A stretch of 63,639 nucleotides of DNA, filler included, from Asterionella formosa (GCA_002256025.1; 13 parts of 13 records of this genome joined end to end with filler, not necessarily neighbours in it); one strand, 5' to 3'; shown: positions 8,131 through 48,510, counted from the whole stretch's first letter. The notes: generated from the sequence alone by a model not told the origin. A program made the numbers and translations.

Positions 8131-8221
8131 TCGAGGTTGCTGCCCTTGTATACGCTAGTATGAAATGATTTAACTTAGGTGTTGCGATTTCTTTCTATTT
8201 ATTAAACGAGACAGTGTAAGA

Positions 8222-8460: not shown

Positions 8461-9439
8461 CAAAATGAAGAAGTTACAAAGGCCAAGATTTAACGCTCTC
8501 ACAGCATGCAACATGTTACACTACAGTAATCTGTGGGTTAAACCAAATTTTGTTTGATTCTCTCTTTAACAATATTGCAATTAATAGTCCATTGATATTT
8601 TAAAAATTAATCTTTTGCTTGCCAACAACAAATAGGATTTGCTAACTTACAAATAGAATTTGCTGACTATGAATAGAAGTTACTGAGTGATTTGTCAACT
8701 CTAGAACAAAACTGTCTTCCAGTTCCTGAATACTATTACCTGTAGAAGCAGTTGAACACGATTTCGATGATTTTGATGACCAGAAGATGACTTGGATTTA
8801 CTGAATGATAATTTAACAGCATAGAAAGTTACTTAAGAGAGTTCGAAATGGAAAGCCAGCCTAGCCCTTCTGGTAAGCATGGGACGAATCATTGAGACGA
8901 GTCGAAACTGAAAAAGTGCGCATAAAACATGCACTACCGGACCTTCCTGATGCACAAAGACGGTACGCACAGCATATCATATGACATAATACGTATCGCT
9001 TCGATTGCATCATTTCGGTATATTTAAGGAAAAAAGTGACGTGATAGTCAACAGAAAATAACGGTTTTAATAACGGTATGTATGACACACCAGTACTGGT
9101 ATTATTAGTGAATGCATCGCTCATCCAAAGAACAGGACAAAACGCCCATCATCAGCCGAAGCAAGGAGCAAAATACAACCACACGAACAAACTTACCGGT
9201 ACCTACCCTGGTACCTGGTACCAGGGTACATACAACCAGTTTCGCCAGAATGTATCAATGATGATACACTTTTTGTTTGTCGTCATAAATCAATTATACT
9301 TCTGCGAATCAGTGCTTTGCTTATTTACCGGTGCTCCTATCAATCAATTGTTAATCCTTGGAATAAAACACAAGAAAGTCTCTAGAAAATAACTCATTCC
9401 AAATTCATTCTCGATTCAACCGAAACGCCCTGCAAATAA

Positions 9440-9913
9440 ATGCAATCCAACGATCCCCTTATGAACCGATATCAGAATGCGGTTTGCCTGTACGACCCCG
9501 AGGCCCTGTTGGAGGTCTCTCCGGAGGTAGCACAGGGCTATCTCATATTGCTTTCTAGCTGCTGGAACGAGGATTTAACCTTACCTTTTGCCAGTTTGAC
9601 GGACGGGAATGTATTGGATGTTTGCTTTGGATGTCATCCTCAACGTCCAAATCTTCAGACTCCAGCTTGGTGTGCGTGCCGAGATGCCAAGGTAGCACTT
9701 TCGTCGGCCGCATTGTCTGGATCTGCGTTTATCAAGCTGGCAATTGATACATATACGAGTGCGTTTACGATTGTGAGCCAGTATCACACGGAAGTGCATG
9801 CGATGCATTGTTGTTTCCGATGCTTTCTACGAGGGTCGAAGCATAAGAAAGCCAAACATGACTTGGAACAGGCATTTGCGATTTTGATGGAAGCAGTTGC
9901 TTCGGCGGCGTAG
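9440..9913 (+). CDS. Hypothetical protein, 157 aa, Cys-rich
   Basis: ATG-started ORF in GC-richer coding-like sequence, convergent with the ankyrin gene; no family recognised. Confidence 0.6.
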   Translation: MQSNDPLMNRYQNAVCLYDPEALLEVSPEVAQGYLILLSSCWNEDLTLPFASLTDGNVLDVCFGCHPQRPNLQTPAWCACRDAKVALSSAALSGSAFIKLAIDTYTSAFTIVSQYHTEVHAMHCCFRCFLRGSKHKKAKHDLEQAFAILMEAVASAA

Positions 9914-10072
9914 CTACATATTTAATAATCCTCTATAGGGAGGTGATTAGTCTAATTGTACAGTATATAATATATCATAGGTCCAGGTATTTAGAAATTG
10001 ACGACGAATAGGACAATACGTTGTCACCCAGCGAACAAGTCATCAAATATAACGATCTAAGGGAATCAATAA

Positions 10073-11059
10073 TTATCGTTTACTGCAGGAACATGCTCGA
10101 CAAACAAGGCCACTCCCTCCCTTGTTGCGAAACAACGCAAAACAGGTCTTGCCACATGCAACACACATTCTACCCCGTGGCAAGTCGTCTGAAGCATTTC
10201 CTGATGAATTCTCTTGGCGCAAATGCAATGGCGTAGCTGGGATATCGAGACTTTTTACTGCAGTGGCACCTGCTAGTGCGTTATCATGGTCTCTCGAAAG
10301 GGAATTGCTCTGGTGCTGCGAACTTACCGACGTTGACAACGTTACCCTAAATGCTGTCTCCCAAGATGCTGTTAAACACCCTTCACTGCAGTCAAGACAA
10401 AAAGCTGCGTTGTCTCTAAGGTGCTGGGGCAAAGCTGACATGCTGGATGACGAAATACTTATTGACGAATTGTCAGTACATGATTGCAATAGAAAGACAC
10501 ACTTGTCCCAGTCTGCTGTTTCTCCCGCTATTTCATCCCATCGTTGAACCTTTTCCCGCTCTTCCTTTTGAAAGGGCTGCAGTTCCACACCTACTTGCAA
10601 AGGAGTTTTGCCATTTGAATCCGTTATTGCAAGTGCTTCCTTTAATTGCTCGCGGCATCGCAGTGCATCAATCAGTAGCTGAACTGCTAAATGTCGGCCT
10701 CCCGCTGTTGCTTTGTGCAGTGGAGTCATATTGTCTCCAAAGCTGACATCTTTCGAAAGCAAATTTGCCTTTGCGTCAATCAATAGTCTCATTGTGGTCA
10801 CAGCTCCAGAAAAGCTGGCACGATGAAGTGGAGATGCACCACATTCTTCCGCGTCTACATTGGCGCCACGTCGTAGCAAAAAAGCTGTAGCTGCTACATG
10901 CCCATGCTGAGCGGCAAAATGCAGTGGCGTGTAACCCCCCGCGTCGGTTCGATGAACGCGTCCTTCAGCAAACGACTTTGAGATAGATTGTAGGTCTCCG
11001 TATTCTGCCGCTGTAAAGGTTGATAACCTCAAAGGGAGCTGTTTGCATGGGCAGGTCAT
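10073..11059 (-). CDS. Ankyrin-repeat protein (ANKRD39-like) with C-terminal CxxC...CxxC putative zinc finger
   Basis: Ankyrin motifs GYTPLHFAAQHGH, GASPLHRASFSG, NMTPLHKATAGG, GKTPLQ; C-terminal CVAC...CRAC. First ATG is at 11059 (track start 11065 is GTG). Confidence 0.9.
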   Translation of the reverse strand: MTCPCKQLPLRLSTFTAAEYGDLQSISKSFAEGRVHRTDAGGYTPLHFAAQHGHVAATAFLLRRGANVDAEECGASPLHRASFSGAVTTMRLLIDAKANLLSKDVSFGDNMTPLHKATAGGRHLAVQLLIDALRCREQLKEALAITDSNGKTPLQVGVELQPFQKEEREKVQRWDEIAGETADWDKCVFLLQSCTDNSSISISSSSMSALPQHLRDNAAFCLDCSEGCLTASWETAFRVTLSTSVSSQHQSNSLSRDHDNALAGATAVKSLDIPATPLHLRQENSSGNASDDLPRGRMCVACGKTCFALFRNKGGSGLVCRACSCSKR

Positions 11060-12145
11060 CTTCACTGATGTTGACGTTTACAGGCACGACAGCACTTGTC
11101 CCTCTGTGTTGGTTACGGTGCAGCCGATTGTTCACTACACTATGGTGACGGCACAACTCTCATTAGCGAAACACTGAGGTAGCATGCATGGAATCGATTG
11201 CTGAAGGCAATACACGCCCGAGGTGGTCTCTTGCCTACAGTCTGTACTGGGCTCTCGCTGTACGTTTCACGCTGGTTCCCTGGTACCTGGTACACACCGT
11301 TAATAATATGATACTAACTACCGATATACCAGCGGTTGATTGCGTAGACCCTACCAGGTACAATTGCGTGTACATACAGTACCGGTAGTTGTACTATTAT
11401 ACCTGTATCATACAGTATCATCCTGGTGTGCGTCGTAAAATCGCTCTCCTTTTGTTTCTGGTTATGTGACGTCAAAGTGCAATTGTACGCTTGGTCTGTA
11501 TTTGGACGAACGTAAATTCCGCTGGCCGGGGTTGTGTAGCCTCACGTAGAAGTTGTAGGATTGAGAACTGATGGATGGTTGCCGTTCGCTCACCACAGCA
11601 GCAACTGTGCTGCCGTGCCATTAGATCTGTGCCAAGTAAGAACAGAACAAGCAACCTCGTTGTTTACAGTGCGCAGATCAAGTACCTGGTACCAGGTACC
11701 TGGTATTGGTCGTTAGTAATTACCTAGTACTGTACTGGTTTGGGTAAACATGCAGCAGAGGACAATTGACTGTACGAGCCGCACCTGGTTCGAGGAGTAC
11801 CTGGTACCATATACGAGTGCAAGTTGTACAGGATCACTCGGTAGATAGAAGCAATGCCGAGCTACAACCAAAAGTGTGTGCTTTGTACAAGCAAGGAATA
11901 CGCCGACACAAAGTAAACCCTTGCAACCAAAGAGAACCCCCTTGAAGATCAACAAAACAAAGCCGTCTGCATGTGCTGCGACAGTCAACGAAGAAGGGAT
12001 ATATTGCATCGAAGACTGGCATTTAAACGACAATAGAACGCATTCACAGAAAAGGAACGCAATTTATCCGTACGAAAATCTCCGATCGATTTCGGTCTGA
12101 TCAATTTACCCGGAAGGAGTTAGCGCAAACATTGGCTTCCTGATC

Positions 12146-14877
12146 ATGATGATTGACGTGGAACTGAGTAATGGAGGGGAATCATCCGCCGAGGGACATG
12201 ATCTCTTTACCAATATGCCACAAAGCGCAACGATTGAATCGCCCTCGATATTAAGCTGCCAGCCATACGTATTGGGTGGCGAATTGAACTCGCACTACGC
12301 CAAAGCAAGGCCGACCAGAGAGAGTGTACTTCAGCGCTTATCAGAAGCACTCATGCGACGATCGCTAACCAAGGTAAGTACTGGTACAAGCACCCCGAGT
12401 GCGTGTTGTCGTCCTGCGCTGTGTTGTGGCTCAGTTGTTCTAACCCCTCGGTGCTTTGTTGTTTTCCTTGTATACTCAATCCGTACTCACGATTGGTAGA
12501 TTGATTTATCACAGCGAGGATTGCAGTCATCAGACGCACGCTTAGTCAAAATGGCCCTGCTGCAGAATTCAAACCTTTCCATTCTCAAACTAGGTTACAA
12601 CAACTTGGGCGATGAAGGTATTAATACATTGGCTGTCGGGATTTCAGCACACCGCGCTTTGGGATCGCTGGATCTTGGATTCAACCAAGTTGGCGATGAA
12701 GGGATTAGATCATTGGCAGCTGCTTTGTTTGGATCTGCCTTGCATACACTCTACTTGGCAGGGAATCACATGGGTGAAGAAGGAGCCATGGCATTGGCAG
12801 ATGGTATCAGGAGAGGGTGTGCTGTGACCAAACTGCATTTGACTGGAAACCGATTAGGGCCAGATGGAGTGAAAGCAATAACAGAAGCCATTCTAGAAGA
12901 TGAACTGAGAAGGAGAGAAACATCATATGTTGTCAATGACACTCGAGGGATCCAAGAGCTCTTTTTAGGAGGAACAAGCATGGGACCAATGGGTTGCCAT
13001 GCAGTTGCTACAATGCTAAGCCGAAGCAGAACAATACGAGTGATATCAATGGCCAATTGCGGTATCACAGATGATGAGGTTGCCACTTTAGCTGTCAGTA
13101 TCAAAGAAAACAGAGAGTTGCTCCCGCTAGAAGCCTTGCAGCTGTCATTCAATGCAATCACTTGTAAAGGCCTTGATTTGTTGACAAACGCGATTTGGGG
13201 ATCTCAAATCATCCGTGAACTCTTATTGGATAACAATGAGATTGGAGATCGAGGTGCCCAGCAGATTGCCAACATTTTGCCATACGTGAAAACTCTTGAA
13301 GTCTTGGACGTTGGTTTCAATGGAATTAAATCACAAGGGATGAAGGCATTAATGAAAGTTGTCGCAGAAACGCAACACTTAGTATCACTTTCGGTTTCAG
13401 GTAACCCAATTGATACAGGGACTGCAAAGGCAGTGGCATATGCTCTGGCATATAACCAATCCCTAAAGTGTTTATTTCTTGATCATTGTGATATTCAACA
13501 TGAAGGGCAGAGACATATTGTGGCTGGTTTTGTTTCCAATTGTGGGATCATGCTGAGGAAACTGACAGGATTCCGGATAGGACGTAAGTATTTTCAGTTA
13601 AATTGTATCGCAGAAAATGATCCATGTCCTTTAACTCATTTTTTTCTGCAGCTGTCATTGTGACTATTGAATTGCCATCAGCGCTGGAGCACTGGACAAA
13701 TGAACAAGTCTTGAATTTTATTCATTTAATGTGGGAGCAATCAAATCAATCCTTATGTGTTGATACAGAAGAACTTGAAGTTGACCCACTTCAGTTCCTT
13801 CCTGATCCCAGTGGTGAAGTTGGACGAGCTGTTGGTCCACTGGATGCCAGTACTGTGGTTCAAGTTGCCAAACGGGCCTATGCTTCCCTTGGAGAGACCG
13901 GCTATGATGTGTTCTCAAGACATGGAGTTGACGACAATGCATTTGACTCACCGTTAACTGAGGATGCAATCATGGTTGAAGGAGCCGACGGAGATTTTAT
14001 TCAAGACACTGACTTGATCCCAACTGCTTCTGTGGCCATGACTGGGAGTAAAGAAGCATTGTCGTTGGCAAATGAAGGTCATTTATCAAATAAGCCAACG
14101 AAATCCTTTGTGGCTGTTCCAGCAAAACCAGCAAAGCCAGCAATCCCTGACCCACACAGAAAGAAACGAATCGTGGATTGGTTATGCAAGAACATTCAAC
14201 ACTTGAATGAGCTTTCACAGATAGCATTCAATTCTGGTGAACTTTGGCGTCTTCATCAACATTATTTCACCCCAGTTGTCAATGAAAGTGGAGGGAATGT
14301 GAATGATTCATCCTTACTTGAATCCGCAGATACTGTTGGAAGGATGGTCAACAGTGTTCCAGATGTCTCTAGACATGGTGCAAACCCAAATGATGCAAGC
14401 ATGGTTACTCCATCCACACAATCAATTGAAGACCAGTGTTTCATTCCTGCAAGTGATCCATCGTTGCAATTATCACCAATGGGAGTACAGTTGACCATGC
14501 TTAAACGTAAAGTTTCATATCGTTTTTTGGGTGATGCTGACAAGCCGACAAGCAGCATGCATTACGTGAATGAACATTCCGTGGCAAAGATGATCGAGGA
14601 TGGCGCAGGTGTCCAGGCGATGCCACCAAGAACGAAAAGAGCCCGTCGCAACAAAACACGTATATCCTTCCTTCCCAGAATCAAGGCAAAGTTGGAGTCA
14701 TATTTAGATGTGTGTCATGAAAAGGCATTGATTCTAATGCGACAGCTTTACTTTGTAGAACATGCACTGCTAGCAGGAAAGATCAACCCCAACGAGCCAT
14801 CCGGCGAAAATAAAGTGACACATCTCTTTGGGCTCCTGGCGGATGAGGCAGAAATGATTCTTATTGATATGGTGTAA
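12146..14877 (+). CDS. Leucine-rich repeat protein (RNI/NLRC3-like LRRs); 3 exons: 12146-12373, 12500-13583, 13652-14877
   Basis: Repeated LxLxxNxIGDEG motifs. GTAAGT...TAG intron 12374-12499 and GTAAGT...CAG intron 13584-13651 join the three track ORFs in frame. Confidence 0.9.
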
Positions 14878-14940
14878 ACGTTTAACAATTGCTTCTAGTA
14901 TTTGTATTCTACAGTCTTATTCGTGGCACAGAAATTAATT

Positions 14941-16848: not shown

Positions 16849-17439
16849 TCTTAAGCCTTACAACAGCCAAGAATGAGGGTTGACCACGTTCATTTTTGTT
16901 GAAAGGTTGCTGTTCCAGATACATGTCGGTAATCTTCTACGATGCATATTACGCACCGGTGTCAATAGAATTCACACCGCCCAGCGGAAAGCATCGTCAG
17001 TCCATGTATAATTATATATAAAATGATGTATATTACAATAAAAACAATATCATACACAAAACACTATTTATTATATACCTGCAAAAAGACAGATATTATC
17101 TAACGTGGGTACCTGGTACCGGGTATGATGCATACGACAAGGGAAAATCTTCAAATTCTTTGAAAAGGGGCGTTCTTACTATCAATCAGCATTTTTCGCA
17201 CATTGTGGTATCATTTCCGCGTTTCGGGCAAAAAATGACTCACAGTTGGTATCAATTTTGTGCATCAGCAACAGTTACCATAAAGTGGTATCAATGCAGT
17301 ATCATTGATACCAAATTGTACCATTTTTGCCCCCTCGAAAAAAGGTATCAGTGATACTGGCAAATTCAGACGAATATCTGACATGTAGTATGTATCTGTG
17401 CCTTCTGTGTGTTGTCCTGCTACTGAGGATGCAACTCAA

Positions 17440-18600: not shown

Positions 18601-19121
18601 CTATGCATGTAGAAGCAGGATGATTATATAATCCTGCTGTTAGTATGTGTATGTGTGTATGTGTTCTGGCAGGGAGTGAAATTATGTCTACGTTGAGCAA
18701 TGTAGATATAACATTAAATGTCTTCGTTCTTTTTGAAATGGAACTCTGTTAATGTGGTGCCAATTTCTACTTAGTTTAAATATTCAGACAGATACTTGCA
18801 TCATGGGAATACACAGAAACAAATTCTCTTTGCGTTCCATGTCAATTTTACAACCCTAGCCATGTTTTACTCCAAACTAGGGTTAAGCCGAAGCCGCAAA
18901 CATACCGTAGCTGAAATAGTACCAGTACCCTACCAGGTACTTGGGACTTGAAGCACCAGGTAACAGGTACCTGGTACCAGATACCGGGGTAGCTTACCGG
19001 TATGTTACTCCCTCCCTACAATACAACGAAGGAAACAACGACAACAGCCAAAACTCAAAAGTAAAACGCTTTTGTTCGTCCTGCTGTTTATTGTAGTTTG
19101 GTCGCCCATTTTCTTAGTGTC

Positions 19122-26362: not shown

Positions 26363-27497
26363 GTTGTTGACTCTGATCCTGACTTGCTTATGGTCTACAG
26401 TTTATTCTCTATACAATCTAATATATTAGGATGCCCTACATACCGTATGATATGACCGGTTTAGAATACCTGGTACATATATACCGGTATTCTTTTGCTT
26501 GATCACATGCATAATGGTATACATGTACTGCTATAATTTTCTTACATTGCTGACAAGATGATGTGGTGAGCGAGCGAGCGAGCGATGCACAACGGTGCAT
26601 GGATGGTACAGCCTGTGCCTCTGGTGGATACTATTTTTATTGTATGGCTGTGCTGCGAATACAAAATTACGTAATAAATATGTGTAGGAAAAGCACCGTC
26701 TGTCCTATACTACGCTACTACCATATGTTAGGCATACAAAATACCCTACAGGTAGCAGTCTACCGATACGGTAGTACGGTATGAATATGATAGACTACGA
26801 CAGATTTACAAAAGACAAAGATATGGTAATGTAAGTGTACTCTAAGCAACCTCTAGGGAAGAATCATAAAAGGATAATGCTAATCTTTTCTTATTGCACA
26901 GGTGTACCATAGCTTAATTGCTTGGCTGTGCTTGAGAATTTCTTTGTAATCCCCCCCCCCCTCCTTGTTGAAGACAATAAATAGTAAGCAAAATATAAAC
27001 AAGCACTGAGCATATCATGACGAAAGCATATGCTGCCAGACACAGAGAAATACAGTTACCAATTGTTTACTTCTACTAATTTGTACTCCATAAATTTTAT
27101 ACCTGCCCTGTTGGAAATACATACTGCTGGTAGCAGTTGGCAGCCCTCCCATAAATCCATTTCACTCAAGTTTGTCCACACATGTACGTATTGGTCATAC
27201 ATGTCATCACCGTACTACTGTTCATGTTCACCATTGAATGATGATACCAGAAGCATGCTACAATATTCCTCTGCTAGACAAGACCAAACAGACATGTATT
27301 GTCTAGTATGTATACCCAGTGGTAGCATAAAGACAAAGATTACATGGCATAGTGGTATATATGTTGATCGAGTTTGCATTGACATCCGTAAAACATGCTG
27401 CAATAGTGACTGTGAAAGTATAAAAATAAATTAACTATTATTTCAATACCAAAAAAGATGCAATATCTTCAAATGTAAAGTAGGGAAGCCGGTACCT

Positions 27498-28787: not shown

Positions 28788-28999
28788 CTTGAGCAATCAA
28801 TTTAATAAATTGTTTTTCATCCGTTTTTGTTCTTTTTCCGTTCACCCAGCCATACATACCGGTACATACGTAGATCCCGGTAAGTCTATCGATACATAAT
28901 AGTAAGATATAATTTTGTGAAGATGAGTTTTTTTCTATACATGTGCCGGTATGAATATTATTTGTCCACTACCGGTTTTTCCGGTTTAGGCCTTAGAAG

Positions 29000-30409: not shown

Positions 30410-30442
30410 GTACCTGGTACCTGGTACCAGGTACCTGGTACC
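30410..30442. promoter_or_regulatory. Palindromic (TACCWGG)n array upstream of a gene (representative of a window-wide motif)
   Basis: GTACCTGGTACCTGGTACCAGGTACCTGGTACC; similar arrays at 11682-11705, 18965-18980, 33841-33856, 47444-47474, 55341-55360 and 59055-59071. Regulatory role is inferred from position only. Confidence 0.5.
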
Positions 30443-30789
30443 GTAATGTATAGTATACATAACACGCACATCATATTCCGTAAATGATACTCCCAGGAGT
30501 ACATAATAATTTACTGGTATGTTTAGCCATGTAGCGTGCTGACGTACCGGTACCTGGGACGGAGTAAAATATAGGATTTGCATGATGCAATGCTGAATTG
30601 ATAAAAATGGCGAGGATGTGTTGCCTACGTGCGTACGGGACTACGGTACATATGTAGGCACACGGTCGTACGTATTTATTTATTCGCCTTGGCTGGTGGT
30701 CTATTCGCTCTTTGATTTTCTGTCGTGATGGTTGTATGTTATTATTTATTCATAATAATTACTAGTGGGTTTCTGTATTTGTTGCCATA

Positions 30790-33227: not shown

Positions 33228-34221
33228 CTCCTTGTGTATAGCAGTGAATTGACCACTCAGTGTGATGATAGGAGCGGTACCAGGTACCAGCACGAGACCG
33301 ACGGCGATGGGTATCTGCACCAAGTGATGAGAATGTACGATTTCAAACTCAGCCACTTGATATTTTACGTTAAAAATAATACTCCTTATTCCTTATTATA
33401 GCTGGAGCATTACGAGGGACGTGGTACGTTGTTCCACAGCACTAAGTTGATGATAATATATCGGTACATGATTAAAAATATGTTGAGGAGGACCGGTACC
33501 GGTACTCCAGTACGTTGTTCCACCGCAATAATGATCCACATTGTGACGAGAGGGTTTGCACCAGCCTGATCTGTGTTGTGCATGCTAAATGTTCTTTTTA
33601 AACTGTATGTGCAAAATGTATTCAGGCCTCATACAATATTAATTAAGGAAGGCACACATAGACCTGCTTGTTATGGTCCAGGGTATGAAGTACCAAGTAC
33701 CAGGGTCCCAGTAGTGCAACAGTATCTTACAATCCGGGGTACCTGGTACCTGTTATACACGTATTGGATGACGATCCATGCATGCATACATAGAGCAGTT
33801 CATCAGGTCACACCTGTGACAAGATATACCGGTTGTTGGTGGTACCAGGTACCTGGAAACTATTTATGCCGGTGTCCGATGTACCGTTATAATAAAGTCC
33901 AATGACATCGCAATTTGTAGGAGCACCTACATAATACTTACCGGTTGTACATGGTACCAGTACCAGTACAACGTCCTCCCTGGTGCTCCACTATACCGGT
34001 TGATCATTTTATTATACCTGGTACCATTATAGCACCCCATTTTGTTTCTGGAGAACCCACATTCCAAATGTGGGGGACGACGACAGGAGTGAACTTGGTC
34101 AGGATCCATCGACCAAACTCCATTTGATAGACGACGAGTATAGCTATACTCTACTTTATACTATAGCATATAATATCATACGATCAATCGACGAATAGAA
34201 TAGCATCTGTTACCACCCAAT

Positions 34222-34998: not shown

Positions 34999-35205
34999 TA
35001 AATGCATTATATATTCGATATTTTGCAATAACCTGTGTATAGAAAATTGCAATTTTATATTCATACCGGTATTTTGGTTCAACTATTCCACATACTGTAT
35101 ATACTCTTTTGATGTCATTGACTCGCTTGACCTGGAATGAAAGTATCATGATCTGTATACCGGTAGTTGTATTTTTCCCGTTACACCTTATTATTATTTA
35201 TTAGA

Positions 35206-37038: not shown

Positions 37039-38026
37039 AATAGTTTCTCAAGTGTAACAAGTATGACAATACATCGGAGAGACATAAACGATGGTGACAT
37101 TCATCGGCGTCGCCCCAAAATTATGTGCCCATTCCTATCATCGCCTCTGCCTATTTTACAAGATAAAAACATTAGCAACGATACCGCTCTACCTGTATTC
37201 TAACAACAATGTGAGCAATGTGTATCATACATGATGATGACATGAAAATGATACCAGGTATGATCATACGTGGAAAACTCGTATCACATGCAACCTCGTC
37301 GTTTGTGCTTCAGCCGAATGCATATTTGTAGACGAAACGGGCAACAAGCAATAGAAAGTCATTGTAAAAATCTAGTCAGTCTTGTGTTTCCTTAGCTAAA
37401 TTAATATTCTTTAAGGCTACCAATCGAGCGATGCGAAATTAGGGGTTGATTGCTGCCATTTCAATTTCCAACCTCTTCATCTCTCAGCAAATCTTGGTAA
37501 CATTCCAGACTTCAGCTTTCTCATCCTTGTCATCTCGTTATCTTGATTGATGTGTCACAATATCACACAGGTTGATTCTAGGGTTTAGGTTGCCACTTGG
37601 AGGTGAGGGAATGGTACTTGCTGGCCACAATATGTGGCGAACAAACAGAGTTAACTCCTAACAGTAAGTAACAAGCAGCAGACTGACTGGATATCTTAGT
37701 ACATCTTTGTCCATCAAAATTTCACTCAGTTGCTTGTCAATTTTCATTCCCTCTGAGGAATGGGTTGATTTGAGAGAAAACTGGCATAATGAAAGTCAAG
37801 AAAGATCCTTCCAGTCAGACATTGGCAATCAGACGAGGAAATGATTGGCAAAGGTTTTAAGCAAGAATGAAGCAAGGTGTAACAACATAAAGTACCATGG
37901 GCAGTTGTTGAAAGGCTGCACTAAAATTTCGGTGAAACTTTAAGAAGAAGTTTTACTTATATATTAAAGCTGGCTAAAACCACTCAGCTTTTGTAAACGT
38001 TCAACTAAATACACAGCTAAGGTTGT

Positions 38027-38643: not shown

Positions 38644-38969
38644 GAATGGCTTAGTGGTTTAGCATGTTGCCTTCGATCTGAGGTTGCTTGTGTGGTTCGA
38701 TTCCTGCAAAAATTTTGACAGGCAATTGTTGGGTTCGACTCCCACATTCCTTACCATCCCGTAAGGTCTTGCCTGGTGTGTAAGAAATAGCGGGTTGCGT
38801 TCCCTACAAGCAGTTTGTGCCGCCTTCCTAGGCGGTCAGAGTTTCCACCTAATGCTGCGGCTAAGATGGTCACCTTTCGCAAAAGTTGGTTGAGGACTCA
38901 CCTACTACACTAACAAAACTAGGGAAACACAAGATCTTGTTGGCAGGTAGCACAATGAAAAACTTGCCT
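38644..38969 (+). mobile_element. tRNA-derived SINE-like element, family 1, copy b
   Basis: A box TGGCTTAGTGG (38647), B boxes GGTTCGATTCCT (38694) and GGGTTCGACTCCC (38731); colinear with 21851-22122 apart from a ~50-bp insertion. Confidence 0.75.
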
Positions 38970-38999
38970 ATAGAAATAGAGGAGTACGAAAGGGCTATA

Positions 39000-39720: not shown

Positions 39721-39849
39721 AGCCATTAGGTGTTAAATAAATAATTATTAATTAGGAGAATTATAAGGGTCAGGCTGTACATGACAGGAAGGGCCAAGCA
39801 GTATGACTCACTAATCATAGGAAGTCACAATGTGCTAAATAAAGAATTA

Positions 39850-42800: not shown

Positions 42801-45762
42801 TGGGCAATATTGTAGGACCAATACTTATCTCTGAACTTGACGGCAAGGTGGTTGCCGATTTGGGTATCTCATTCTGACTCGGAGCCGAAGACTTGAATAC
42901 TGGGGATCGTACATATGGTAATGCAGTTGGGGTAATCCCAGATCCAGAGACTGTGGGAATCTCGGTTGCAGTATGGGGAGATGTACTAGACAATGAAAAA
43001 AACGAAGGAGGTGATGAGGGAGCCAATGATGCTGAAACTTCAAATGTATCTCCAGTAACAAGATCCGATATGAAGAGTGGATCCAGTACACCAACTTCTG
43101 CCAACCTTTGAATTGTCATCTGGAACAATACTGAAAATTCTTCAATTGTTGGAGCACGATTTTCAGCCAGGACTGGACAATAGCAATCATTGGCAGCAAC
43201 CACTTGCAAGCGCCGATCTTGTGTATAGCTAGCGCTATCAGATGTGGGTAGTAAGAGCTGGCGACGTACAGCATCATTAAACAACCTGGAATTACTGCTG
43301 CAACCTCGACATGTGCCACTGATCCTGAAACGATAGCCAAATGAACTACCACGCTGTGTAGGCTTTCGAGTAGGAGCACGAGTGACAATACGCTGTACTG
43401 TCTGCAATGATCGACGATTAGAACCATTGGTGATGTTAACCTCGATGGCCAAAGCATTCGTGACCCTGCGAAACAATAAATCGCAAGTTTCATTGTTACG
43501 TGAGTTCAGTGTGTTAAAGGTGTCAACCACTTCCTGCTCCAACACTGAAATTTGTGATGGTGTAGCTTTGCTGGGATCTCCAACAAAGCCAACATCCAGG
43601 AATGATTCAAAATCTACAGCAGCAGCACAAATGTCAGGTTCTACTTCGAATGTGTTGCTATTTACAACATCAGCAACAAAAGTAGAATTCAACAATCCAC
43701 CGTCCACAAGATTCTGGATATTCATCTTGAAAGATGTTTCAAATTCTTCAATCGTTGGAGCACGATTTTCAGCCAGGACTGGACAATAGCAATCATTGGC
43801 AGCAACCACTTGCAAGCGCCGATCATGTGTGTAGCTAGCGCTATCAGATGTGGGTAGTAAGAGCTGGCGACGTACAGCATCATTAAACAACCTGGAATTA
43901 CTGCTGCAACCTCGACATGTGCCACTGATCCTGAAACGATAGCCGAATGAACTACCACGCTGTGTAGGCTTTCGAGTAGGAGCACGAGTGACAATACGCT
44001 GTACTGTCTGCAATGATCGACGATTAGAACCGTTGCTGATGTTAACCTCAATGGCCAAAGCATTCGTGACCCTGCGAAACAATAAATCGCAAGTTTCATT
44101 GTTACGTGAGTTCAGTGTGTTAAACGTGTCAACCACTTCCTGCTCCAACACTGAAATTTGTGATGGTGTAGCTTTGCTGGGATCTCCAACAAAGCCAACA
44201 TCCAGGAATGATTCAAAATCTACAGCAGCAGCACAAATGTCAGGTTCTACTTCGAATGTGTTGCTATTCAAAACATCAACAATGAATTGAGGAGTCAAGG
44301 AATCACCTGCCACTAGATCATGGATTGCAATCTTGAAAGATGCCTCGAATTCATCAATTGTTGGAGCACGATTTTCAGCCAGAATTGGGCAGATGCAATC
44401 ATTCGCTACGTCCAATTGAACATTTTGGCCATGGGAGTAGTAAATACCGAAAGAGGAGATTGAGAGGCCCCGACGAACAGAATTATGAAACAACATGGAA
44501 TTCCTGCTGCACCCTTGACATCTGCCAGTAACCCTGAAGCGATAGCTGAATGAGCCACTACGCTGTGGACCGCTGATTATGTCAACTTCGATAGCCAAAG
44601 CATTCGTGAGCCTTCGAAACAATAAATCGCAAGTTGCATTTCTGACTGAGTTTAGATTGTTGAAGGTATCAACAACCCCCTGCTCTAGAATCGAGATTTG
44701 TGATGGTGTGACCTTGCTGGAATCGCCAATAAAGTTGATGACCAGGAAAGATTCAAATTCCTCTTTTCTGTTGCATGCTCCTGATTCTGATTTCAGAACC
44801 ACCACAAAATCGACCCTTTCAACAAACAGAACGGCAAAAGAGGATTGCACGAATGAGTTGAATCTGGATGGAAAGCCTGACGGTGGCAAACACGTATAGC
44901 ATGGATCCATATCGATTGTAGAAGGAATGATAGAGGGTGAAGGAGAATATGCCATTATAGTCTTGCCGTTCGATTCCCTATTTCTTTTGTGCTTTCCCTT
45001 CTTACTACTCCTCGTGCTCCCTTTCCGAGTATTTCCGTTATCCCTTCTGTTTTTCCCTCCCTTCTTGTTCGCTTTATTTTTATTTTTACTCTCATCCTTC
45101 ATGTTGTTATCAACACGCTCGCTACCTTTGATTCTATGAAGCTTCAGCCCTCTCTGGGCATTGTCATCTGCGAAAAGCCTCATGTCGTCTCCGCATCCTG
45201 AGCAAAGACCTTGGATAAGAAAACGGAGTCCAAATGATACAGCACTTCCGTTACTGCTCAGGAAACCATCATTTAAGTCTGTTTGATTCCATACAGAAAC
45301 AACAGAGGTAAGGACGCGGAAGGTTCCATTCTCACAATCTTCTGAACTAAAAGAGTTGTAGCTTTCCATAAACAGAAGCTCAAGTTCTCTCAGCTGATCT
45401 GGCGATACAAGATCTGGGTGCCCAGTGAGCGTTGCAGAGACTTCATATTGAAACGGGCTTGGAGGGGGGAGATCTTCACACACAGTGATATTGGCCATAT
45501 TTCTTTCCACGACTTCTTCTTCTCCATCCTTCTGCTCGCCGATTCTGCCGCTCTTAATCAATGCCCCTTTTTGTTTTCGGAATAAGGCGGGGTGCAAGTC
45601 TTTGAAGGTTTCCTTGGGGTGCGATTTTTCTGGATTCTTGGCGGATTCCACTTTCAACAGCAACAGTAGCTGAGTAACGACAAAGAATGCAATCGACAAG
45701 GAACGGCGGACTTTAGCCAATCTGCTACGCCTCGATACCGGAGAATTAATATCAGGGAGCAA
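39850..45762 (-). CDS. Large secreted/surface mucin-like protein with four Cys-containing repeat domains, RxL sites and long Pro/Thr (PT..P) repeats
   Basis: 1970-aa open frame; N-terminal hydrophobic segment; repeated (F)ESFL...LEQ...TFN...C...F.Y.F...G.C.GC...LF domain; PTxxP tracts. Track start is TTG; a possible ATG-AAG mini-exon at 45894-45889 (donor GTAAG at 45888) could splice in frame at the AG at 45805. Confidence 0.9.
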   Translation of the reverse strand: MLPDINSPVSRRSRLAKVRRSLSIAFFVVTQLLLLLKVESAKNPEKSHPKETFKDLHPALFRKQKGALIKSGRIGEQKDGEEEVVERNMANITVCEDLPPPSPFQYEVSATLTGHPDLVSPDQLRELELLFMESYNSFSSEDCENGTFRVLTSVVSVWNQTDLNDGFLSSNGSAVSFGLRFLIQGLCSGCGDDMRLFADDNAQRGLKLHRIKGSERVDNNMKDESKNKNKANKKGGKNRRDNGNTRKGSTRSSKKGKHKRNRESNGKTIMAYSPSPSIIPSTIDMDPCYTCLPPSGFPSRFNSFVQSSFAVLFVERVDFVVVLKSESGACNRKEEFESFLVINFIGDSSKVTPSQISILEQGVVDTFNNLNSVRNATCDLLFRRLTNALAIEVDIISGPQRSGSFSYRFRVTGRCQGCSRNSMLFHNSVRRGLSISSFGIYYSHGQNVQLDVANDCICPILAENRAPTIDEFEASFKIAIHDLVAGDSLTPQFIVDVLNSNTFEVEPDICAAAVDFESFLDVGFVGDPSKATPSQISVLEQEVVDTFNTLNSRNNETCDLLFRRVTNALAIEVNISNGSNRRSLQTVQRIVTRAPTRKPTQRGSSFGYRFRISGTCRGCSSNSRLFNDAVRRQLLLPTSDSASYTHDRRLQVVAANDCYCPVLAENRAPTIEEFETSFKMNIQNLVDGGLLNSTFVADVVNSNTFEVEPDICAAAVDFESFLDVGFVGDPSKATPSQISVLEQEVVDTFNTLNSRNNETCDLLFRRVTNALAIEVNITNGSNRRSLQTVQRIVTRAPTRKPTQRGSSFGYRFRISGTCRGCSSNSRLFNDAVRRQLLLPTSDSASYTQDRRLQVVAANDCYCPVLAENRAPTIEEFSVLFQMTIQRLAEVGVLDPLFISDLVTGDTFEVSASLAPSSPPSFFSLSSTSPHTATEIPTVSGSGITPTALPYVRSPVFKSSAPSQNEIPKSATTLPSSSEISIGPTILPSSAYTDSPTTSTKTSELTPGPVRVPTGALNNNTLVPIQETSTPSPSSAASISLPISVTTQIPTVGSIIQISRNFFDLSLSLFGISSLSPIEVELFTNFTRGYLNAAFESEYQNPPMFLAVNVTSLSSQTTNQSVRFLVEASINKLTVTIKIFTEQIGPNPLSPAEELKRSEMYILDSAYLSGLSMISGFSSIVEISIGQTINPDIAVTTEPTVTPSGSPSTSPMIIIPQTSAPSITSAAQTSIPTFATTPTPTITSPETVVPTDTPVLTMTAGPTATPSGSPNTSPMITIPQTSAPSTVSGAPTSIPTFATTPTPTITSPETVVLTDTPVLTMTAGPTATPSGSPNTSPMITIPQTSAPSTVSGAPTSIPTFATTPTPIATPTLLPTSTSTLHPSIFSTSSPSTSPIFVPTEVPTSLPTVSPTLSPSILPTGTPAASPTGNPTLVPTIPLTVLPTVTPTLAPTIATTASLTGMPTLVPTVLPTVLPTATPTSTPTIAPTAFPRANPTPVPTVPPTVLPTVTPTLAPSIAPTASPTGIPTLVPTVSTTVLPTATPTLGPTVAPTSSPTGMPTLVPTVSPTVIPTATPTSTPTIAPTAFPRANPTPVPTVPPTVLPTVSPTVLPTATPTLGPTVAPTTSPTGMPTRFPTVSPTILPTATPTSVPTRAVVIPSEKPSNFEPLPSSFQFNPELIPAGKSLSIAISVNVSLLPRNIFGNLTGFAIYRCDPISGDPFSTTVVILADTGSGTGADQNAGDFIFAAALALRSGMPGEVFAFQAVPLFNVTMIEDRFGIGRHLVMTKLNAVTSYKGNETDGIDGGGNLILDTLSGVSLIITYSWPADLLDLDTSTEFNGTTVGSYDCGPNTTTYLTSFGDNTDFGGSEKVKVLLGRYYDNINHARGHTYNITLNAGWYIYDDGDSGSGPALVSMYVEHNNFSNVPPLRSTTLTTAINPGSQESCASTKVATITVVDDGKTFTIILAPYTDPM
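41672..42140 (-). repeat. 189-bp in-frame tandem repeat in the PT-rich region
   Basis: GTTGGAGTTGTAGCAAATGTGGGGATAGATG at 41672, 41861 and 42050. Confidence 0.9.
43139..44350 (-). repeat. Near-identical 606-bp in-frame tandem duplication (202 aa) inside the mucin-like gene
   Basis: Shadow ORFs 43116..43493 and 43722..44099 are offset by 606 nt; the nucleotide sequences are almost identical. Confidence 0.95.
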
Positions 45763-46768
45763 GTACGGCGTTTCAAGGTTACATTCATCCGTAATGGCAA
45801 GCGCCTGATCTGAGGGTGGGAAAATAATGTGAGCTTGGATCCTAGCAAGAGCTCTGATCTACTTCTTCTTTCAGCTTTTCCTCCTTACCTTCATTCCGAA
45901 GATAACAGGAGATGTTCATCTTGAATATACCAAAGCGTTCAATACTCTTGCTTATGCTTGCAGTTAGGAAAATAATTTTTAGTTTTTGTTGGGATTATTT
46001 AGTTCTCGTGCCTTTTTTAACAAGGAGCAATTTTCCAGAGGTCTCGAGTTACACATGTTCCATTGACACTTGCAATGATCCACTGTACAAAGTACACATC
46101 CATATATGTATTAACTGGCTATTTACGTGCATGATGCTTGCCAACTAATATTCGATACCATCTTATTTTTAATTACAGTTCAGCAGACAATGTAATTACC
46201 GGCATATACTATTCTCGGTATTATATTTCATTTAAATGAACCTTTGTTGGAGGCAGTGACGTTGGGGTCTGGATGCACGCGTGCTTAAGCGCGAAGACGT
46301 TCGGAGAACTGAAAGAAGACAGAGCGAGCCGCAGCGCCGCTCTTATATGATTACAATATGCATGGTACATAGCGATGCTATAAAATGTAATAGTCCACCG
46401 TATTTAAATTGACATTTAAGCAGATGACTCTCTCCTCATGATTTTCGATAGTACGAGGTACAATATCCTTCCTAATAACGTTCCGTAGGAGAAAATATTC
46501 GAACATCGCAACAAATTCTACATAATAATGGGGTCATAAGATGTCAACTACTTTGACAATTCGTTGGGGAGTCATTCACTTCCAAGAGGCATTTCCTTGT
46601 TTGCTACATAGCCACATGAATGAGGCCACTCCACCACTGGTATAATATGTGCGTATTGAATGACATTTAGGAACATGATGCTTGCCTCGATAGAAATCAC
46701 AATGATACAATTCAGAATACCTGGTGGAGCACCAGATACCAGTAATAAACGGAGCCTGGTACCGTATA

Positions 46769-46851
46769 CTTCATTGTCCTGGACCCCCCAATGTACACTG
46801 CCGTGACTGAATTTGACTGATTTTACTTAAGGGGGGCCCAGGACAATGAAG
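46769..46851. mobile_element. 83-bp MITE-like inverted repeat
   Basis: CTTCATTGTCCTGGACCCCCC ... GGGGGGCCCAGGACAATGAAG: 21-bp arms with one mismatch. Confidence 0.55.
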
Positions 46852-46986
46852 AGATTTCCCTTATAATGGACCTAAGTAAATTTCTTNNNNNNNNNNNNNN
46901 NNNNNNNNNNNNNNNNNNNNNNNNNNNNNNTTAATTAATTAANNNNNNNNNNNNNNNNNNNNNNNNNNNNNNNNNNNNNNNNNNNN

Positions 46987-47044
46987 CAGGTCCAATGGAA
47001 GCGAGACCGAGAAAGAGGGTAGCCAAGCAGTAAATCTTCTTCAT
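46987..47044 (-). CDS. N-terminus (signal peptide) of a gene truncated by the contig end
   Basis: MKKIYCLATLFLGLASIGP runs into the linker; palindromic motif cluster lies upstream at 47436-47510. Confidence 0.4.
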
Positions 47045-48510
47045 GATGGAACCAACGTTTCGAGCTTGTCTTTGAAAACCCCCTGCGCGACGATTGAATG
47101 TCGTTGTGTCTCGTTGCGTATCCACTAATTCAGGAAGTAGTAATGATTGACTTGACAGAGGCTTCTCTACAAACAGAAACAGGAGCAGCAACAGCAGCAA
47201 CAGCAGCAGCAGCAGCAGAGTGTCAGCGTACAAGTTATGACCGACCGGTACTCCTATGTACTGAATTTATGGACAGTGCTGCACTGCATGCAAGGTTTTT
47301 TTAATCTCGAAATATGCATTAGTTATTGCTTGGAAATGACCTTTAGCTTAGAGTCTACGTAAAACAGTCTCTGGCGGTCACAAGGTTCGTCAAGTTGTTA
47401 ATCATTTTCATAGGCACATTTTAAGTAGAGTGTTAGGTACCCCGTACCGGTACCTGGTACCAGGTACCTGGTACAGTACCACTTCCTAGTACCTGGTACC
47501 ACCTACCGGTAGTTCCCTAAAGTTGTTTGGTGCGGTACGAGTACTGGTACTAGGAAGTATGTTGTTCATACAAATTCCAGTAGAAATGGGCCGTTGGGAG
47601 GCATCATGGCTGGTTCCAGACCACGAGTAAGGTGTCTGCTGTACCGTTGTTGTTATAATGTCAAAGTCCGGAGTTACGAGTACATACATAAATATTGCTC
47701 TATGGGTATATCAGAGGCATGGATGCATATTTATTCATATATACCGGTAATAAATTTGAGGTTTGGTCATACCGATGGTTGATGAGAGGACGTTAAGAAA
47801 CTGGTTCCTGGTAGAAATACTGTATACAAATCTGATCGGGGGTCCATGGTATTGGTCATTTGCCTTATGTAACAATGCCGTATAATACTGAATGCCTGTA
47901 CCGGAAGGTTTATATGCGCATGGCGAATCTTTGGGACAAAGCGACAGGATGACTTTCTTCGGATATGATGATCCAGGGACACAACTCTACCAGTAGTCGA
48001 CTGGTACAAATATATTTCAAAAGGTCTTCTTGATATTGTTCAAGAGCAGAGATCAAATATAAATATATAACCGATGGTGTTCGTGGTTGAGTCCAAATAC
48101 AATGGTTGTCATCCAGGATTCTTTTTAAATAAACCGCAGTTCACTTTTGTCTTTATTCAATTAAACATATTCAATCAACTATCTTTTCCTCATGTTAGAG
48201 TCATTGAATTTCCTTCACTTAGTCCTTGTAACATATTAAACTATAACTGTAGACATGGACCCAACAATGCTAGGAGCAGGCAAATCATCTGTTTCTTGTA
48301 TCATTTGCTTGCTCAAGGTAAATGGAAACAGTAGAATCTAGGGGGCAAAAGTCCCAAACACTTTTCTCATGAATTAAAATAGAGTATGCAATGACAATTG
48401 AACAAGTTTANNNNNNNNNNNNNNNNNNNNNNNNNNNNNNNNNNNNNNNNNNNNTTAATTAATTAANNNNNNNNNNNNNNNNNNNNNNNNNNNNNNNNNN
48501 NNNNNNNNNN

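What the first reader, a model, noticed from the sequence alone, without database searches (positions are those of the whole stretch)
9190..47510. Highly iterated palindrome TACCWGGTA / TACCGGTA marks the 5' flank of nearly every gene
Seen: a self-complementary 7-nt unit (TACCWGG, W flipping A/T) forms nested palindromes such as GGTACCAGGTACCTGGTACC, together with the variant TACCGGTA. Clusters lie upstream of the 9440 ORF (9194-9230), between the divergent ankyrin and LRR genes (11280, 11682-11705, 11797), and upstream of the oxidoreductase (17107), ferredoxin (18920-19002), RNA polymerase (26468-26490), protease (28857), plastid protein (30410-30442), 7TM gene (33277), DUF2306-like gene (33690-34025), SET gene (37252), mucin gene (~46740-46765) and the 47044 gene (47436-47510). 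It is absent from the short convergent gaps 9913-10073 and 14877-14941 and arrays are absent from the CDSs. Caveat: single TACCGGTA copies occur in the convergent gap 34998-35206, and some clusters sit at transposon edges (473-500, 59055). Inference: a genome-wide promoter or chromatin-boundary element, or a eukaryotic analogue of cyanobacterial HIP1. The embedded CCWGG could be a methylation target and the arrays could extrude cruciforms. I do not know of a description of this motif in diatoms.
Basis: partly seen in the sequence, partly recalled or inferred. Interest (0 to 1): 0.8.

Follow-up and report, generated by a model that had tools for sequence, protein, structure and literature searches.

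The report
Promoter-marking palindrome of a freshwater diatom
A short mirror-symmetric DNA word, TACC(W)GGTA, often repeated in small 7-base arrays, sits just upstream of most genes in this diatom sequence and is most likely the docking site of a general gene-regulating protein.

Summary
TACCWGGTA occurs 29 times (0.26 expected) and TACCGGTA 19 times (0.37 expected) in the window. The window is 13 diatom contigs joined by N linkers, not one locus.

On the two large contigs, 23 of 32 exact sites lie within 500 bp upstream of the start codons of 12 genes. That zone is 12.7% of the sequence (p=2e-14). Ten of the 12 genes have at least one such site. An unbiased k-mer test picks sub-words of this motif as the best discriminators of 5' flanks. 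For 5 of 6 genes, the motif lies 50-190 bp beyond the 5' ends of RNA contigs. For one gene it is inside the 5' UTR.

Cluster flanks share nothing but the array, so this is not one MITE. Independent DNA contigs carry the sites, so it is not an artefact.

More distant diatoms (383 kb) lack this density. Their non-coding DNA holds the word only about 10-fold above expectation.

TACCGGTA is in print as a predicted oomycete promoter motif. I found no diatom description.

Best reading: a proximal-promoter binding site, with arrays made by slippage. The HIP1 and cruciform readings are not supported.

The parts
9194..9225 (.). Cluster TACCGGTACCTACCCTGGTACCTGGTACCAGG, 215-246 bp upstream of ORF 9440-9913 (+)
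11279..11387 (.). Three exact sites (11284, 11352, 11380), 225-321 bp upstream of the ankyrin gene 10073-11059 (-)
11683..11808 (.). Array TACCTGGTACCAGGTACCTGGTA plus TACCTGGTACC in the divergent ankyrin/LRR gap; 753-868 bp upstream of the LRR ORF's ATG at 12551
17108..17122 (.). GGTACCTGGTACCGG, 262 bp upstream of the amine-oxidase-type gene 14941-16848 (-)
18931..19002 (.). Cluster of three exact sites, 127-191 bp upstream of a + strand gene (ATG 19122, intron from about 19317)
26467..26489 (.). TACCTGGTACATATATACCGGTA, 105-120 bp upstream of the ATG of the phage-type RNA polymerase gene (-). It lies about 92-139 bp beyond the ends of RNA contigs from three runs (26350-26375)
28857..28864 (.). 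TACCGGTA, 70 bp upstream of the papain-type protease ATG (28787, -) and 50 bp beyond the longest RNA contig end (28807)
30411..30442 (.). Longest perfect array on the two large contigs, 4.7 units of GGTACCW. It is 146-167 bp upstream of ORF start 30265 (-) and 189 bp beyond the RNA contig end (30222). DNA contigs break here, and many contigs with unlike flanks share it
30545..30557 (.). TACCGGTACCTGG, 280 bp upstream of the same gene
33276..33288 (.). It is inside the 5' UTR according to RNA contigs of three runs that reach 33338-33368
33493..33504 (.). CCGGTACCGGTA (period-6 form) in the divergent promoter region, 125 bp beyond the RNA contig end of the 32172-33227 gene
33698..34025 (.). Run of exact and degenerate copies (33740, 33843, 34015; also TACCGGTTG three times) upstream of gene 34222-34998 (+). 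The last copy lies 56 bp before the earliest RNA contig start (34081)
35064..35165 (.). Two isolated TACCGGTA with A/T-rich flanks in a convergent (3'/3') gap: the exceptions to the 5' rule
37252..37260 (.). TACCAGGTA, 214 bp upstream of the SET-domain gene ATG (37038, -) and 143 bp beyond the longest RNA contig end (37109)
47436..47511 (.). Densest cluster (6 exact sites, 5.7-unit array) on a separate 1.4-kb contig, 170-245 bp from the 5' end of a truncated - strand ORF ending at 47266
55341..55368 (.). GGTACCAGGTACCTGGTACCGACCGGTA on a small contig that also holds TACCGGTA at 55786 and 55877
59056..59071 (.). TACCTGGTACCTGGTA at the very end of a small contig (the assembly breaks in the array), just outside the stretch this contig shares with 7531-8431

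Best explanation
TACC(W)GGTA is a proximal-promoter cis-element of this diatom. Its full W form is GGTACCWGGTACC. It is a palindromic binding site for a sequence-specific, probably dimeric, DNA-binding protein. The protein acts at most RNA polymerase II promoters, in the manner of a general regulatory or housekeeping-promoter factor.

Sites lie mostly about 50-220 bp upstream of the transcript start, and sometimes in the 5' UTR. They work in either orientation and form homotypic clusters. Because the heptamer GGTACCW overlaps itself, replication slippage makes and removes units. This gives arrays of 2-6 units.

Shown: enrichment, exact spacing rules, 5' location, lack of orientation bias, lack of shared flanks. 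Inferred: protein binding, and the identity of the factor. My guess is a Myb-type protein. The published Phytophthora 2R-Myb consensus CCGTTAC differs from CCGGTAC at one base.
For: Enrichment: 29 vs 0.26 and 19 vs 0.37.

Spacing: only 0 and 1 are strongly enriched, and the centre base is W in 29 of 32 spacing-1 sites.

Exact copies dominate. The W form has 29 exact copies (0.69 expected) but only 28 one-mismatch copies (14.9 expected). TACCGGTA has 19 exact (0.64) and 63 one-mismatch (16.8).

Location: 23 of 32 sites and 15 of 22 clusters lie within 500 bp upstream of 12 start codons, which is 12.7% of the two large contigs (p=2e-14 and 2.5e-9). Ten of 12 genes have a site. CDS holds 2 sites in 20.8 kb. 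The top eleven 6-mers and top eight 7-mers that separate the upstream 500 bp from other non-coding DNA are all sub-words of the motif.

RNA: for 5 of 6 genes, RNA contigs from three runs stop 50-190 bp short of the motif.

Symmetry: the centre base relative to gene direction is 8 T to 8 A, as expected for a symmetric site.

Turnover: another strain carries a 7-bp insertion, GTACCCG, at 30498 that creates a further GTACCCGGTAC site.

Literature: TACCGGTA is a high-confidence predicted binding site in Phytophthora infestans promoters (PMC3597505, passages). Motif-9, whose string GTACCGGTA is given in PMC10031896, lies upstream of 1,284 Phytophthora genes (PMC3520976, passages).

Relatives: in 57 kb of other diatoms' non-coding DNA the two words occur 3 and 4 times against 0.31 and 0.42 expected. 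In 183 kb of their ORFs they occur 0 and 3 times.
Against: No binding protein, footprint or reporter result exists.

Logan contigs cannot fix transcription start sites, so distances to the start are rough.

Two TACCGGTA lie in a convergent 3' gap, two lie inside ORF starts, and one W site (5034) lies in repeat-rich DNA.

At other loci the array sits in poly(A) RNA contigs (5 loose-end contigs in run X10). X10 shows zero depth in six silent intergenic bins, so some copies are transcribed.

The high density is not shared by more distant diatoms: 3 and 8 copies in 383 kb. A conserved essential factor is therefore not shown.

The sample is small: 12 genes and 47 kb, with gene models drawn from ORFs.

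Dominance of exact copies could also mean recent spread rather than selection.
Confidence: 0.6

Rival explanations
1. A neutral, lineage-specific simple repeat. The self-overlapping heptamer GGTACCW is a microsatellite-like sequence, or the relic of a mobile element. It arises or lands preferentially in open, nucleosome-free promoter DNA and has no function of its own.
For: There are 12 period-7 arrays. Another strain shows a 7-bp indel. The density is lineage-specific: 3 W sites in 383 kb of relatives. Some clusters lie next to repeat-rich DNA: 5034 at the end of a 115-bp tandem repeat, 59056 beside a shared repeat, and a Mutator-like fragment about 400 bp from the 18931 cluster. Other diatom loci carry a different signature palindrome, CTAGCTAG.
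Against: 27 of 48 exact sites are isolated single 8-9-mers, not arrays. Arrays never exceed 5.7 units. Exact copies outnumber the excess of one-mismatch copies, unlike a decaying repeat. Two precise spacings share one half-site. The 78 cross matches between cluster flanks are all 41 bp or shorter and consist of the array itself, so no element body, terminal repeat or shared flank exists. The related 8-mer is a predicted promoter motif in oomycetes.
Confidence: 0.2
2. A structural or epigenetic mark rather than a classical factor site. The embedded CCWGG/CCGG would be a cytosine-methylation target, or the arrays would extrude cruciforms, and this would set a chromatin boundary at gene starts.
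For: The long arrays fold well as single-stranded DNA: -13.1 kcal/mol with z -4.5 at 30405-30447, and -20.9 with z -3.2 at 47436-47511. Neighbouring W bases alternate in 7 of 9 adjacent pairs, which lengthens the perfect palindrome. Every copy contains CCWGG or CCGG.
Against: Most copies are too short. Short clusters fold like shuffles: z -0.4 at 17100-17130, and 12 of 200 shuffles fold as well at 11678-11710. The 7 to 2 alternation is not significant by my own arithmetic (two-sided binomial about 0.18). Methylation and chromatin could not be examined with these tools.
Confidence: 0.1
3. An RNA-level element. The palindromes would be transcribed into 5' UTRs and act as hairpins on translation or stability.
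For: GGTACCAGGTACC at 33276-33288 lies inside RNA contigs of three runs. The array also occurs in poly(A) RNA contigs from other loci.
Against: For 5 of 6 genes the RNA contigs end 50-190 bp before the motif. There is no strand or orientation bias, 8 to 8. Single 8-9-mers cannot form stable hairpins.
Confidence: 0.05

Closest known systems
Oomycete promoter palindrome TACCGGTA. It is M94 in Phytophthora infestans (Roy et al. 2013, PMC3597505), motif-9 GTACCGGTA (Seidl et al. 2012, PMC3520976) and streme-5 ATACCGGTAT in Plasmopara halstedii (PMC10031896)
   Same: The 8-mer is identical. It is palindromic and over-represented upstream of genes in a stramenopile, where it lies upstream of 1,284 Phytophthora genes. 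Isolated TACCGGTA copies here also have A/T-rich flanks.
   Different: In oomycetes it marks a subset of stage- or infection-regulated genes and is one motif among about 100. Here it marks 10 of 12 genes. It also has a second, commoner form with one extra central W and GG/CC flanks, and it forms heptamer arrays. No binding protein is known in either group. I read passages of these papers only, not figures or supplements.
Housekeeping-promoter palindromes bound by general factors, such as the Drosophila DRE TATCGATA (DREF/BEAF-32) and the vertebrate TCTCGCGAGA element. The first is recalled; for the second I saw only the listing abstract of bioRxiv 10.1101/202622
   Same: A short palindrome sits close to the start of a large share of genes, is orientation-independent, often occurs in several copies, and is common at divergent promoters.
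   Different: The sequence is unrelated. No evidence links the factors. The share of genes marked here looks higher, but it rests on 12 genes.
Yeast general regulatory factor sites (Reb1 TTACCCG, Abf1, Rap1) (recalled)
   Same: Sites lie about 100-200 bp upstream of starts at many unrelated genes and are thought to keep promoters nucleosome-free. Reb1 is Myb-like, and its site resembles the GTACCCG variants seen here.
   Different: Those sites are not palindromic and do not form tandem arrays. The resemblance is from memory and was not tested.
Cyanobacterial HIP1 (GCGATCGC) (recalled)
   Same: A hyper-abundant short palindrome specific to a lineage.
   Different: HIP1 is spread through coding and non-coding DNA. 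This word is 0.10 per kb in CDS and about 3.9 per kb in 5' flanks.

Membership tests
Oomycete TACCGGTA promoter motif (M94 / motif-9) | Core sequence TACCGGTA, palindromic | tested here: met
   19 exact copies against 0.37 expected. The strings are quoted in PMC3597505 and PMC10031896.
Oomycete TACCGGTA promoter motif (M94 / motif-9) | Over-represented in upstream regions | tested here: met
   7 of the 11 TACCGGTA copies on the two large contigs lie within 500 bp upstream of start codons, 2 at ORF starts and 2 in a 3' gap.
Oomycete TACCGGTA promoter motif (M94 / motif-9) | Association with a stage- or infection-specific expression class, and a homologous binding factor | not testable with these tools
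   No expression classes exist for this organism, and no factor is known in either group (one search found none named in the main text of PMC11267843).
MITE or other transposon ends | Copies share an element body or terminal repeats beyond the short motif | tested here: not met
   I compared the +/-250-bp flanks of 25 clusters all against all. The 78 matches between non-overlapping clusters are all 41 bp or shorter and are the array itself.
MITE or other transposon ends | Target-site duplications at the ends | not tested
   There is no element body to delimit.
HIP1-type genome-wide palindrome | High frequency in coding as well as non-coding DNA | tested here: not met
   2 sites in 20.8 kb of CDS against 23 in 5.9 kb of upstream DNA.
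HIP1-type genome-wide palindrome | Cognate methyltransferase or methylation of the site | not testable with these tools
   No genome is held, and there are no methylation data.
Microsatellite / simple tandem repeat | Head-to-tail copies of one unit, length-polymorphic | tested here: inconclusive
   There are 12 period-7 arrays of 2.1-5.7 units, and one 7-bp indel between strains beside an array. However, 27 of 48 exact sites are single copies.
General promoter factor site (DRE / GRF-like) | Present near the start of a large share of unrelated genes, at a preferred distance, in either orientation | tested here: met
   10 of 12 genes of unrelated function carry a site, 51-482 bp from the ATG, with orientation 8 to 8. 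Distance to the RNA contig ends is 50-190 bp for 5 of 6 genes. The sample is small.
General promoter factor site (DRE / GRF-like) | Bound by a specific protein, with an effect on transcription or chromatin | not testable with these tools
   This needs bench work.

The most novel reading that the evidence does not exclude
Diatom lineages each mark most of their RNA polymerase II promoters with their own signature palindrome. This freshwater species uses GGTACCWGGTACC / TACCGGTA. The species behind loci L007, L015 and L008 use CTAGCTAG-type arrays. Each palindrome would be read by a fast-evolving general promoter factor that co-evolves with its site. The word would be an ancient, low-copy stramenopile binding site (TACCGGTA in oomycetes; about 10-fold enriched in other diatoms' non-coding DNA) that was promoted to a near-universal promoter mark in one lineage.
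Probability: 0.2. Interest if true: 0.8.

Novelty: new variant of a known kind. Interest (0 to 1): 0.55.

Why it matters
Little is known about how diatom promoters are built. To my knowledge only a few factor-site pairs have been tested.

One short word upstream of most genes would give a direct handle on a general promoter factor through DNA pull-down or DAP-seq. It would give a sequence-only marker of gene starts for annotating this and related genomes. It would also give a compact part for synthetic promoters.

The contrast with relatives matters too. They have the same word at about a tenth of the density, or a different signature palindrome. This would make the turnover of a global promoter code testable by comparing genomes.

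Tried and rejected
- Whole-genome counts: no genome is held for this window. All statistics therefore rest on 62 kb.
- Earlier findings of the scan: nothing on this genome, sequence or theme.
- Close relatives: the single metagenome scan, run with an alignment of the amine-oxidase-type protein, returned 64 loci, all at 62% identity or less apart from one 53-residue partial match (L064, 87%). The 74% and 67% relatives seen as proteins were not captured. Conservation at orthologous promoters of close species therefore stays untested.
Most are single hits, roughly what I would expect by chance in a collection of that size, plus heptamer arrays in some Bacteroidota. No diatom DNA was gained.
- Literature: five searches found no paper holding the W-form strings in a diatom or promoter context. 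Subscription journals, figures and supplements were not seen.
- Factor identity: the main text of the Phytophthora binding-specificity paper names no protein for TACCGGTA. Its logos are in figures I could not see.
- 'Ferredoxin' label: Pfam gave no family for the ORF pieces at 19065-19732.
- RNA cover: parts of 23523-39800 without RNA contigs (for example 26781-27323 and 37641-38183 in X10) are used only as a check for DNA carry-over, not as evidence of silence.
- SNPs between strains: none of the listed differences in 23523-39800 falls in an exact site. About 0.4 would be expected, so this says nothing (my arithmetic).
- Not used: structure prediction, complex prediction and RNA-family tools. 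Nothing in the finding calls for them.

Full report
WHAT THE WINDOW IS

It is not one locus. Twelve linkers of the form N44-TTAATTAATTAA-N44 join 13 contigs: 1-23422 (A), 23523-46886 (B) and eleven pieces of about 1.42 kb from 46987 onward. Adjacency across linkers has no meaning.

Pfam names six of the long ORFs: ankyrin, LRR, a flavin amine-oxidase-type enzyme, a phage-type RNA polymerase, a papain-type protease and a SET-domain protein.

The amine-oxidase-type protein has its best named relatives in diatoms (Nitzschia, Seminavis, Fragilaria, Cylindrotheca, Attheya) at 51-59% identity. It also has unnamed relatives at 99%, 74% and 67%. Public runs that hold 27400-37300 are labelled lake water, freshwater or algae metagenome. 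The organism is therefore a freshwater diatom without a close named reference among these hits. No whole genome is held.

Yes.

- TACCWGGTA has 29 matches against a mean of 0.26 in 100 dinucleotide shuffles (largest 2). TACCGGTA has 19 against 0.37.
- Under an order-2 Markov model the family gives the most enriched non-homopolymer 8- and 9-mers of the window: TACCGGTA 19 vs 0.64, CCTGGTACC 18 vs 0.23, TACCTGGTA 20 vs 0.35.
- The spacing rule is sharp. TACC-N0-GGTA occurs 19 times and TACC-N1-GGTA 32 times (centre T 20, A 9, G 3, C 0). N2 occurs 6 times. Other spacings are near the background of about 1, apart from the echoes expected from arrays.
- The W form extends to GGTACCWGGTACC: the flanking base after TA is C in 46 of 54 symmetrised rows. 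TACCGGTA has A/T-rich flanks.
- Tandem Repeats Finder lists 12 period-7 arrays of this unit, 2.1 to 5.7 copies long, and one period-6 array.
- 27 of the 48 exact sites are isolated single copies.
- Exact copies dominate. The W form has 29 exact copies (0.69 expected) against 28 one-mismatch copies (14.9 expected). TACCGGTA has 19 (0.64) against 63 (16.8).

WHERE IT LIES

I took 12 genes on contigs A and B from ORFs, Pfam and, for B, RNA contigs.

- 23 of the 32 exact sites on A and B lie within 500 bp upstream of a start codon. That zone is 12.7% of the sequence (binomial p=2e-14).
- Counted as clusters, 15 of 22 lie there (p=2.5e-9). Within non-coding DNA alone, 15 of 20 do (p=1e-6).
- CDS holds 2 sites in 20.8 kb, both within about 130 bp of the annotated ATG. 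The 500 bp downstream of stops hold 2. Other DNA holds 5.
- Ten of the 12 genes have at least one site, at 51-482 bp from the ATG. The LRR gene has four at 753-868 bp, in the gap it shares with the ankyrin gene. The mucin-like gene has only partial copies.
- In the four head-to-tail gaps, every site sits at the end nearest the 5' gene.
- Results against the rule: two TACCGGTA in the convergent gap 34999-35205, and one W site at 5034 in repeat-rich DNA.
- An unbiased test agrees. Among all 6-mers and 7-mers, the eleven and eight words that best separate the upstream 500 bp from other non-coding DNA are all sub-words of the motif.
- Orientation of the central W relative to the gene is 8 to 8.

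RNA AND DNA FROM PUBLIC RUNS (window 23523-39800; Logan contigs only, so ends are approximate)

| Gene | RNA contigs reach | Motif | Position of motif |
|---|---|---|---|
| RNA polymerase (-) | 26350-26375 in three runs | 26467-26489 | about 92-139 bp beyond |
| Protease (-) | 28807 | 28857 | 50 bp beyond |
| Spliced gene 29235-30222 (-) | 30222 | array 30411-30442 | 189 bp beyond |
| Gene 34222-34998 (+) | starts at 34081 | last copy ends 34025 | 56 bp before |
| SET gene (-) | 37109 | 37252 | 143 bp beyond |

- The poly(A) run X10 has zero depth in six intergenic bins, so it carries little DNA. Yet 5 of its contigs with unlike flanks contain the array. Some copies elsewhere are therefore transcribed.
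- In DNA run X1 the bin holding the 30411-30442 array has summed depth 3075, against 33-40 around it. Dozens of contigs end in the array with unlike flanks (agreement 0.38-0.55).
- This fits a word dispersed over many loci. However, the sample may be mixed, and some bacteria carry the same heptamer (see the side observation below), so not all of that depth need be the diatom's.
- X1 contigs differ from the window at about 0.2% of positions and carry all the sites between 23843 and 37870. The sites are therefore not an assembly or library artefact.
- X1 also has a 7-bp insertion, GTACCCG, at 30498 that creates one more GTACCCGGTAC site.

NOT ONE MOBILE ELEMENT

I compared the +/-250-bp flanks of 25 clusters all against all. 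The 78 matches between non-overlapping clusters are all 41 bp or shorter and consist of the array itself.

Repeat families do exist in the window: 1-9190 shares them with three small contigs, and there is a Mutator-like fragment at 18254-18550. The arrays lie beside these repeats, not inside the shared stretches.

STRUCTURE

As single-stranded DNA, the long arrays fold well: -13.1 kcal/mol with z -4.5, and -20.9 with z -3.2. The short clusters do not: z -0.4 to -2.4.

Neighbouring W bases alternate in 7 of 9 adjacent pairs. By my arithmetic that is not significant. Cruciforms cannot explain the single copies.

RELATIVES

The metagenome scan gave 64 loci, 383,367 bp in all. All are at 62% protein identity or less, apart from one 53-residue partial match (L064, 87%). 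The closer relatives were missed.

- The loci hold 3 TACCWGGTA and 8 TACCGGTA, so the window's density is not shared.
- For 26 of the 64 loci (those of 4 kb or more with GC up to 0.55), I split the DNA by long open frames.
- Their non-coding 57 kb holds 3 and 4 copies against 0.31 and 0.42 expected. Their 183 kb of ORFs holds 0 and 3 against 0.75 and 0.99.
- On the same measure, the window's 22.6 kb of non-coding DNA holds 20 and 9.
- The word thus looks like a low-copy non-coding motif in other diatoms that was amplified about ten-fold or more here.
- Three other loci (L007, L015, L008) show their own enriched palindrome, CTAGCTAG: 13 vs 0.5 expected in non-coding DNA. By eye, the copies lie in 5' and divergent gaps.

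LITERATURE

Five searches found no paper with the W-form strings in a diatom or promoter setting.

TACCGGTA is in print for oomycetes:
- M94, a 'high-confidence' predicted binding site of P. infestans (PMC3597505, passages).
- Motif-9, an inverted repeat upstream of 1,284 Phytophthora genes (PMC3520976, passages).
- ATACCGGTAT in Plasmopara, equated there with GTACCGGTA (PMC10031896, passage).

The main text of the P. infestans binding-specificity study names no protein for it. Its 2R-Mybs bind CCGTTAC, one base from CCGGTAC (PMC11267843, passages). I saw no figures or supplements.

HOW IT MOST LIKELY WORKS

A symmetric protein-binding site in the proximal promoter, used at most genes.

- Shown: the enrichment, the two exact spacings, the 5' location, the lack of orientation bias, the homotypic clustering and the independence from flanks.
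- Inferred: that a dimeric factor binds it, that the factor is Myb-like, and that slippage of the self-overlapping heptamer builds the arrays.
- Rivals: a neutral promoter-associated simple repeat, a methylation or cruciform mark, or an RNA element. Each is scored with its evidence in the Rival explanations section.

LIMITS

The sample is twelve genes and 47 kb. Gene models come from ORFs. Transcript ends come from contigs. There is no genome, no close relative and no chromatin or methylation data.

VERDICT

The promoter reading is supported. The HIP1 and cruciform readings are not.

This is a new variant of a known kind of element. It is related by sequence to an oomycete promoter motif, and I could not find it described for diatoms.

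SIDE OBSERVATION

Pattern scans found heptamer arrays such as TACCTGGTACTTGGTACC in intergenic gaps of some Bacteroidota genomes (L124, L154).

Noticed in passing
window 23423-23522, 46887-46986 and ten further places up to 62118-62217: The window is 13 contigs joined by N44-TTAATTAATTAA-N44 linkers (a stop codon in every frame). Eleven of the pieces are about 1.42 kb long, so neighbours across a linker are not neighbours in the genome.
   Followed up: yes
window 50159-51457 and 60695-61993: Two small contigs are 100% identical over 1299 bp in opposite orientation. This is redundancy in the assembly.
   Followed up: partly
window 1-9190; 53081-54503; 57649-59071; 62218-63639; 18254-18550: Dispersed repeat families are shared at 77-88% identity: 5558-6703 with 62218-63639, 7531-8431 with 57649-59071, and 53081-54503 with 57649-59071. 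A Mutator-like transposase fragment (Pfam PF20700, E 9e-7) lies at 18254-18550.
   Followed up: partly
window 4345-5020: A 115-bp tandem repeat, 5.9 copies at 87% match, ends directly at a motif copy (TACCTGG...TACCTGGTACC, 5018-5044).
   Followed up: no
window 33424-33445 and 33510-33531: A second repeated word, GTACGTTGTTCCAC, occurs twice (91% over 22 nt) in the divergent promoter region between genes 32172-33227 and 34222-34998. TACCGGTTG occurs three times at 33827, 33939 and 33994.
   Followed up: no
window 30498: DNA run X1 carries a 7-bp insertion, GTACCCG, that creates an extra GTACCCGGTAC site 56 bp from the main array. This is a strain difference in motif copy number.
   Followed up: partly
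window 26781-27323, 28953-29495, 37641-39269: These bins have DNA depth of 190-1500 in run X1 against about 37 around them, with little or no poly(A) RNA in two of the three regions. They are other dispersed repeats in the intergenic DNA of contig B.
   Followed up: no
window 39850-45498 (-): A 1882-aa ORF with long internal repeats (periods of 24 to 288 bp at 40814-42176) and strong GC skew. It has only weak Pfam hits. It is the one gene of the 12 with no exact motif within 1 kb upstream.
   Followed up: no
L007 198-260, 2172-2330, 7954-8464; L015 4466, 9468, 14378-14470; L008 133: Other diatom loci carry their own enriched intergenic palindromes: CTAGCTAG (13 vs 0.5 expected in 57 kb of non-coding DNA), TATGCATA and TACGAGCTCGTA. 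L007 also has TACTATTAGTA, the string quoted for Phytophthora motif-7. By eye they lie in 5' and divergent gaps. CTAGCTAG is absent from the window.
   Followed up: partly
L124 (Litoribacter ruber) 528-570, 3795-3850, 5911, 6903, 10001; L154 (lake MAG) 10001-10140, 16605-16870: Some Bacteroidota genomes hold heptamer arrays of the same kind (TACCTGG / TACTTGG / TACCAGG units) in intergenic gaps. In L124 four of six copies follow one conserved 30-nt leader (AAAACTGCC...CCTAGAA), and the other two a related one. This looks like a bacterial intergenic repeat family unrelated to the diatom element.
   Followed up: partly
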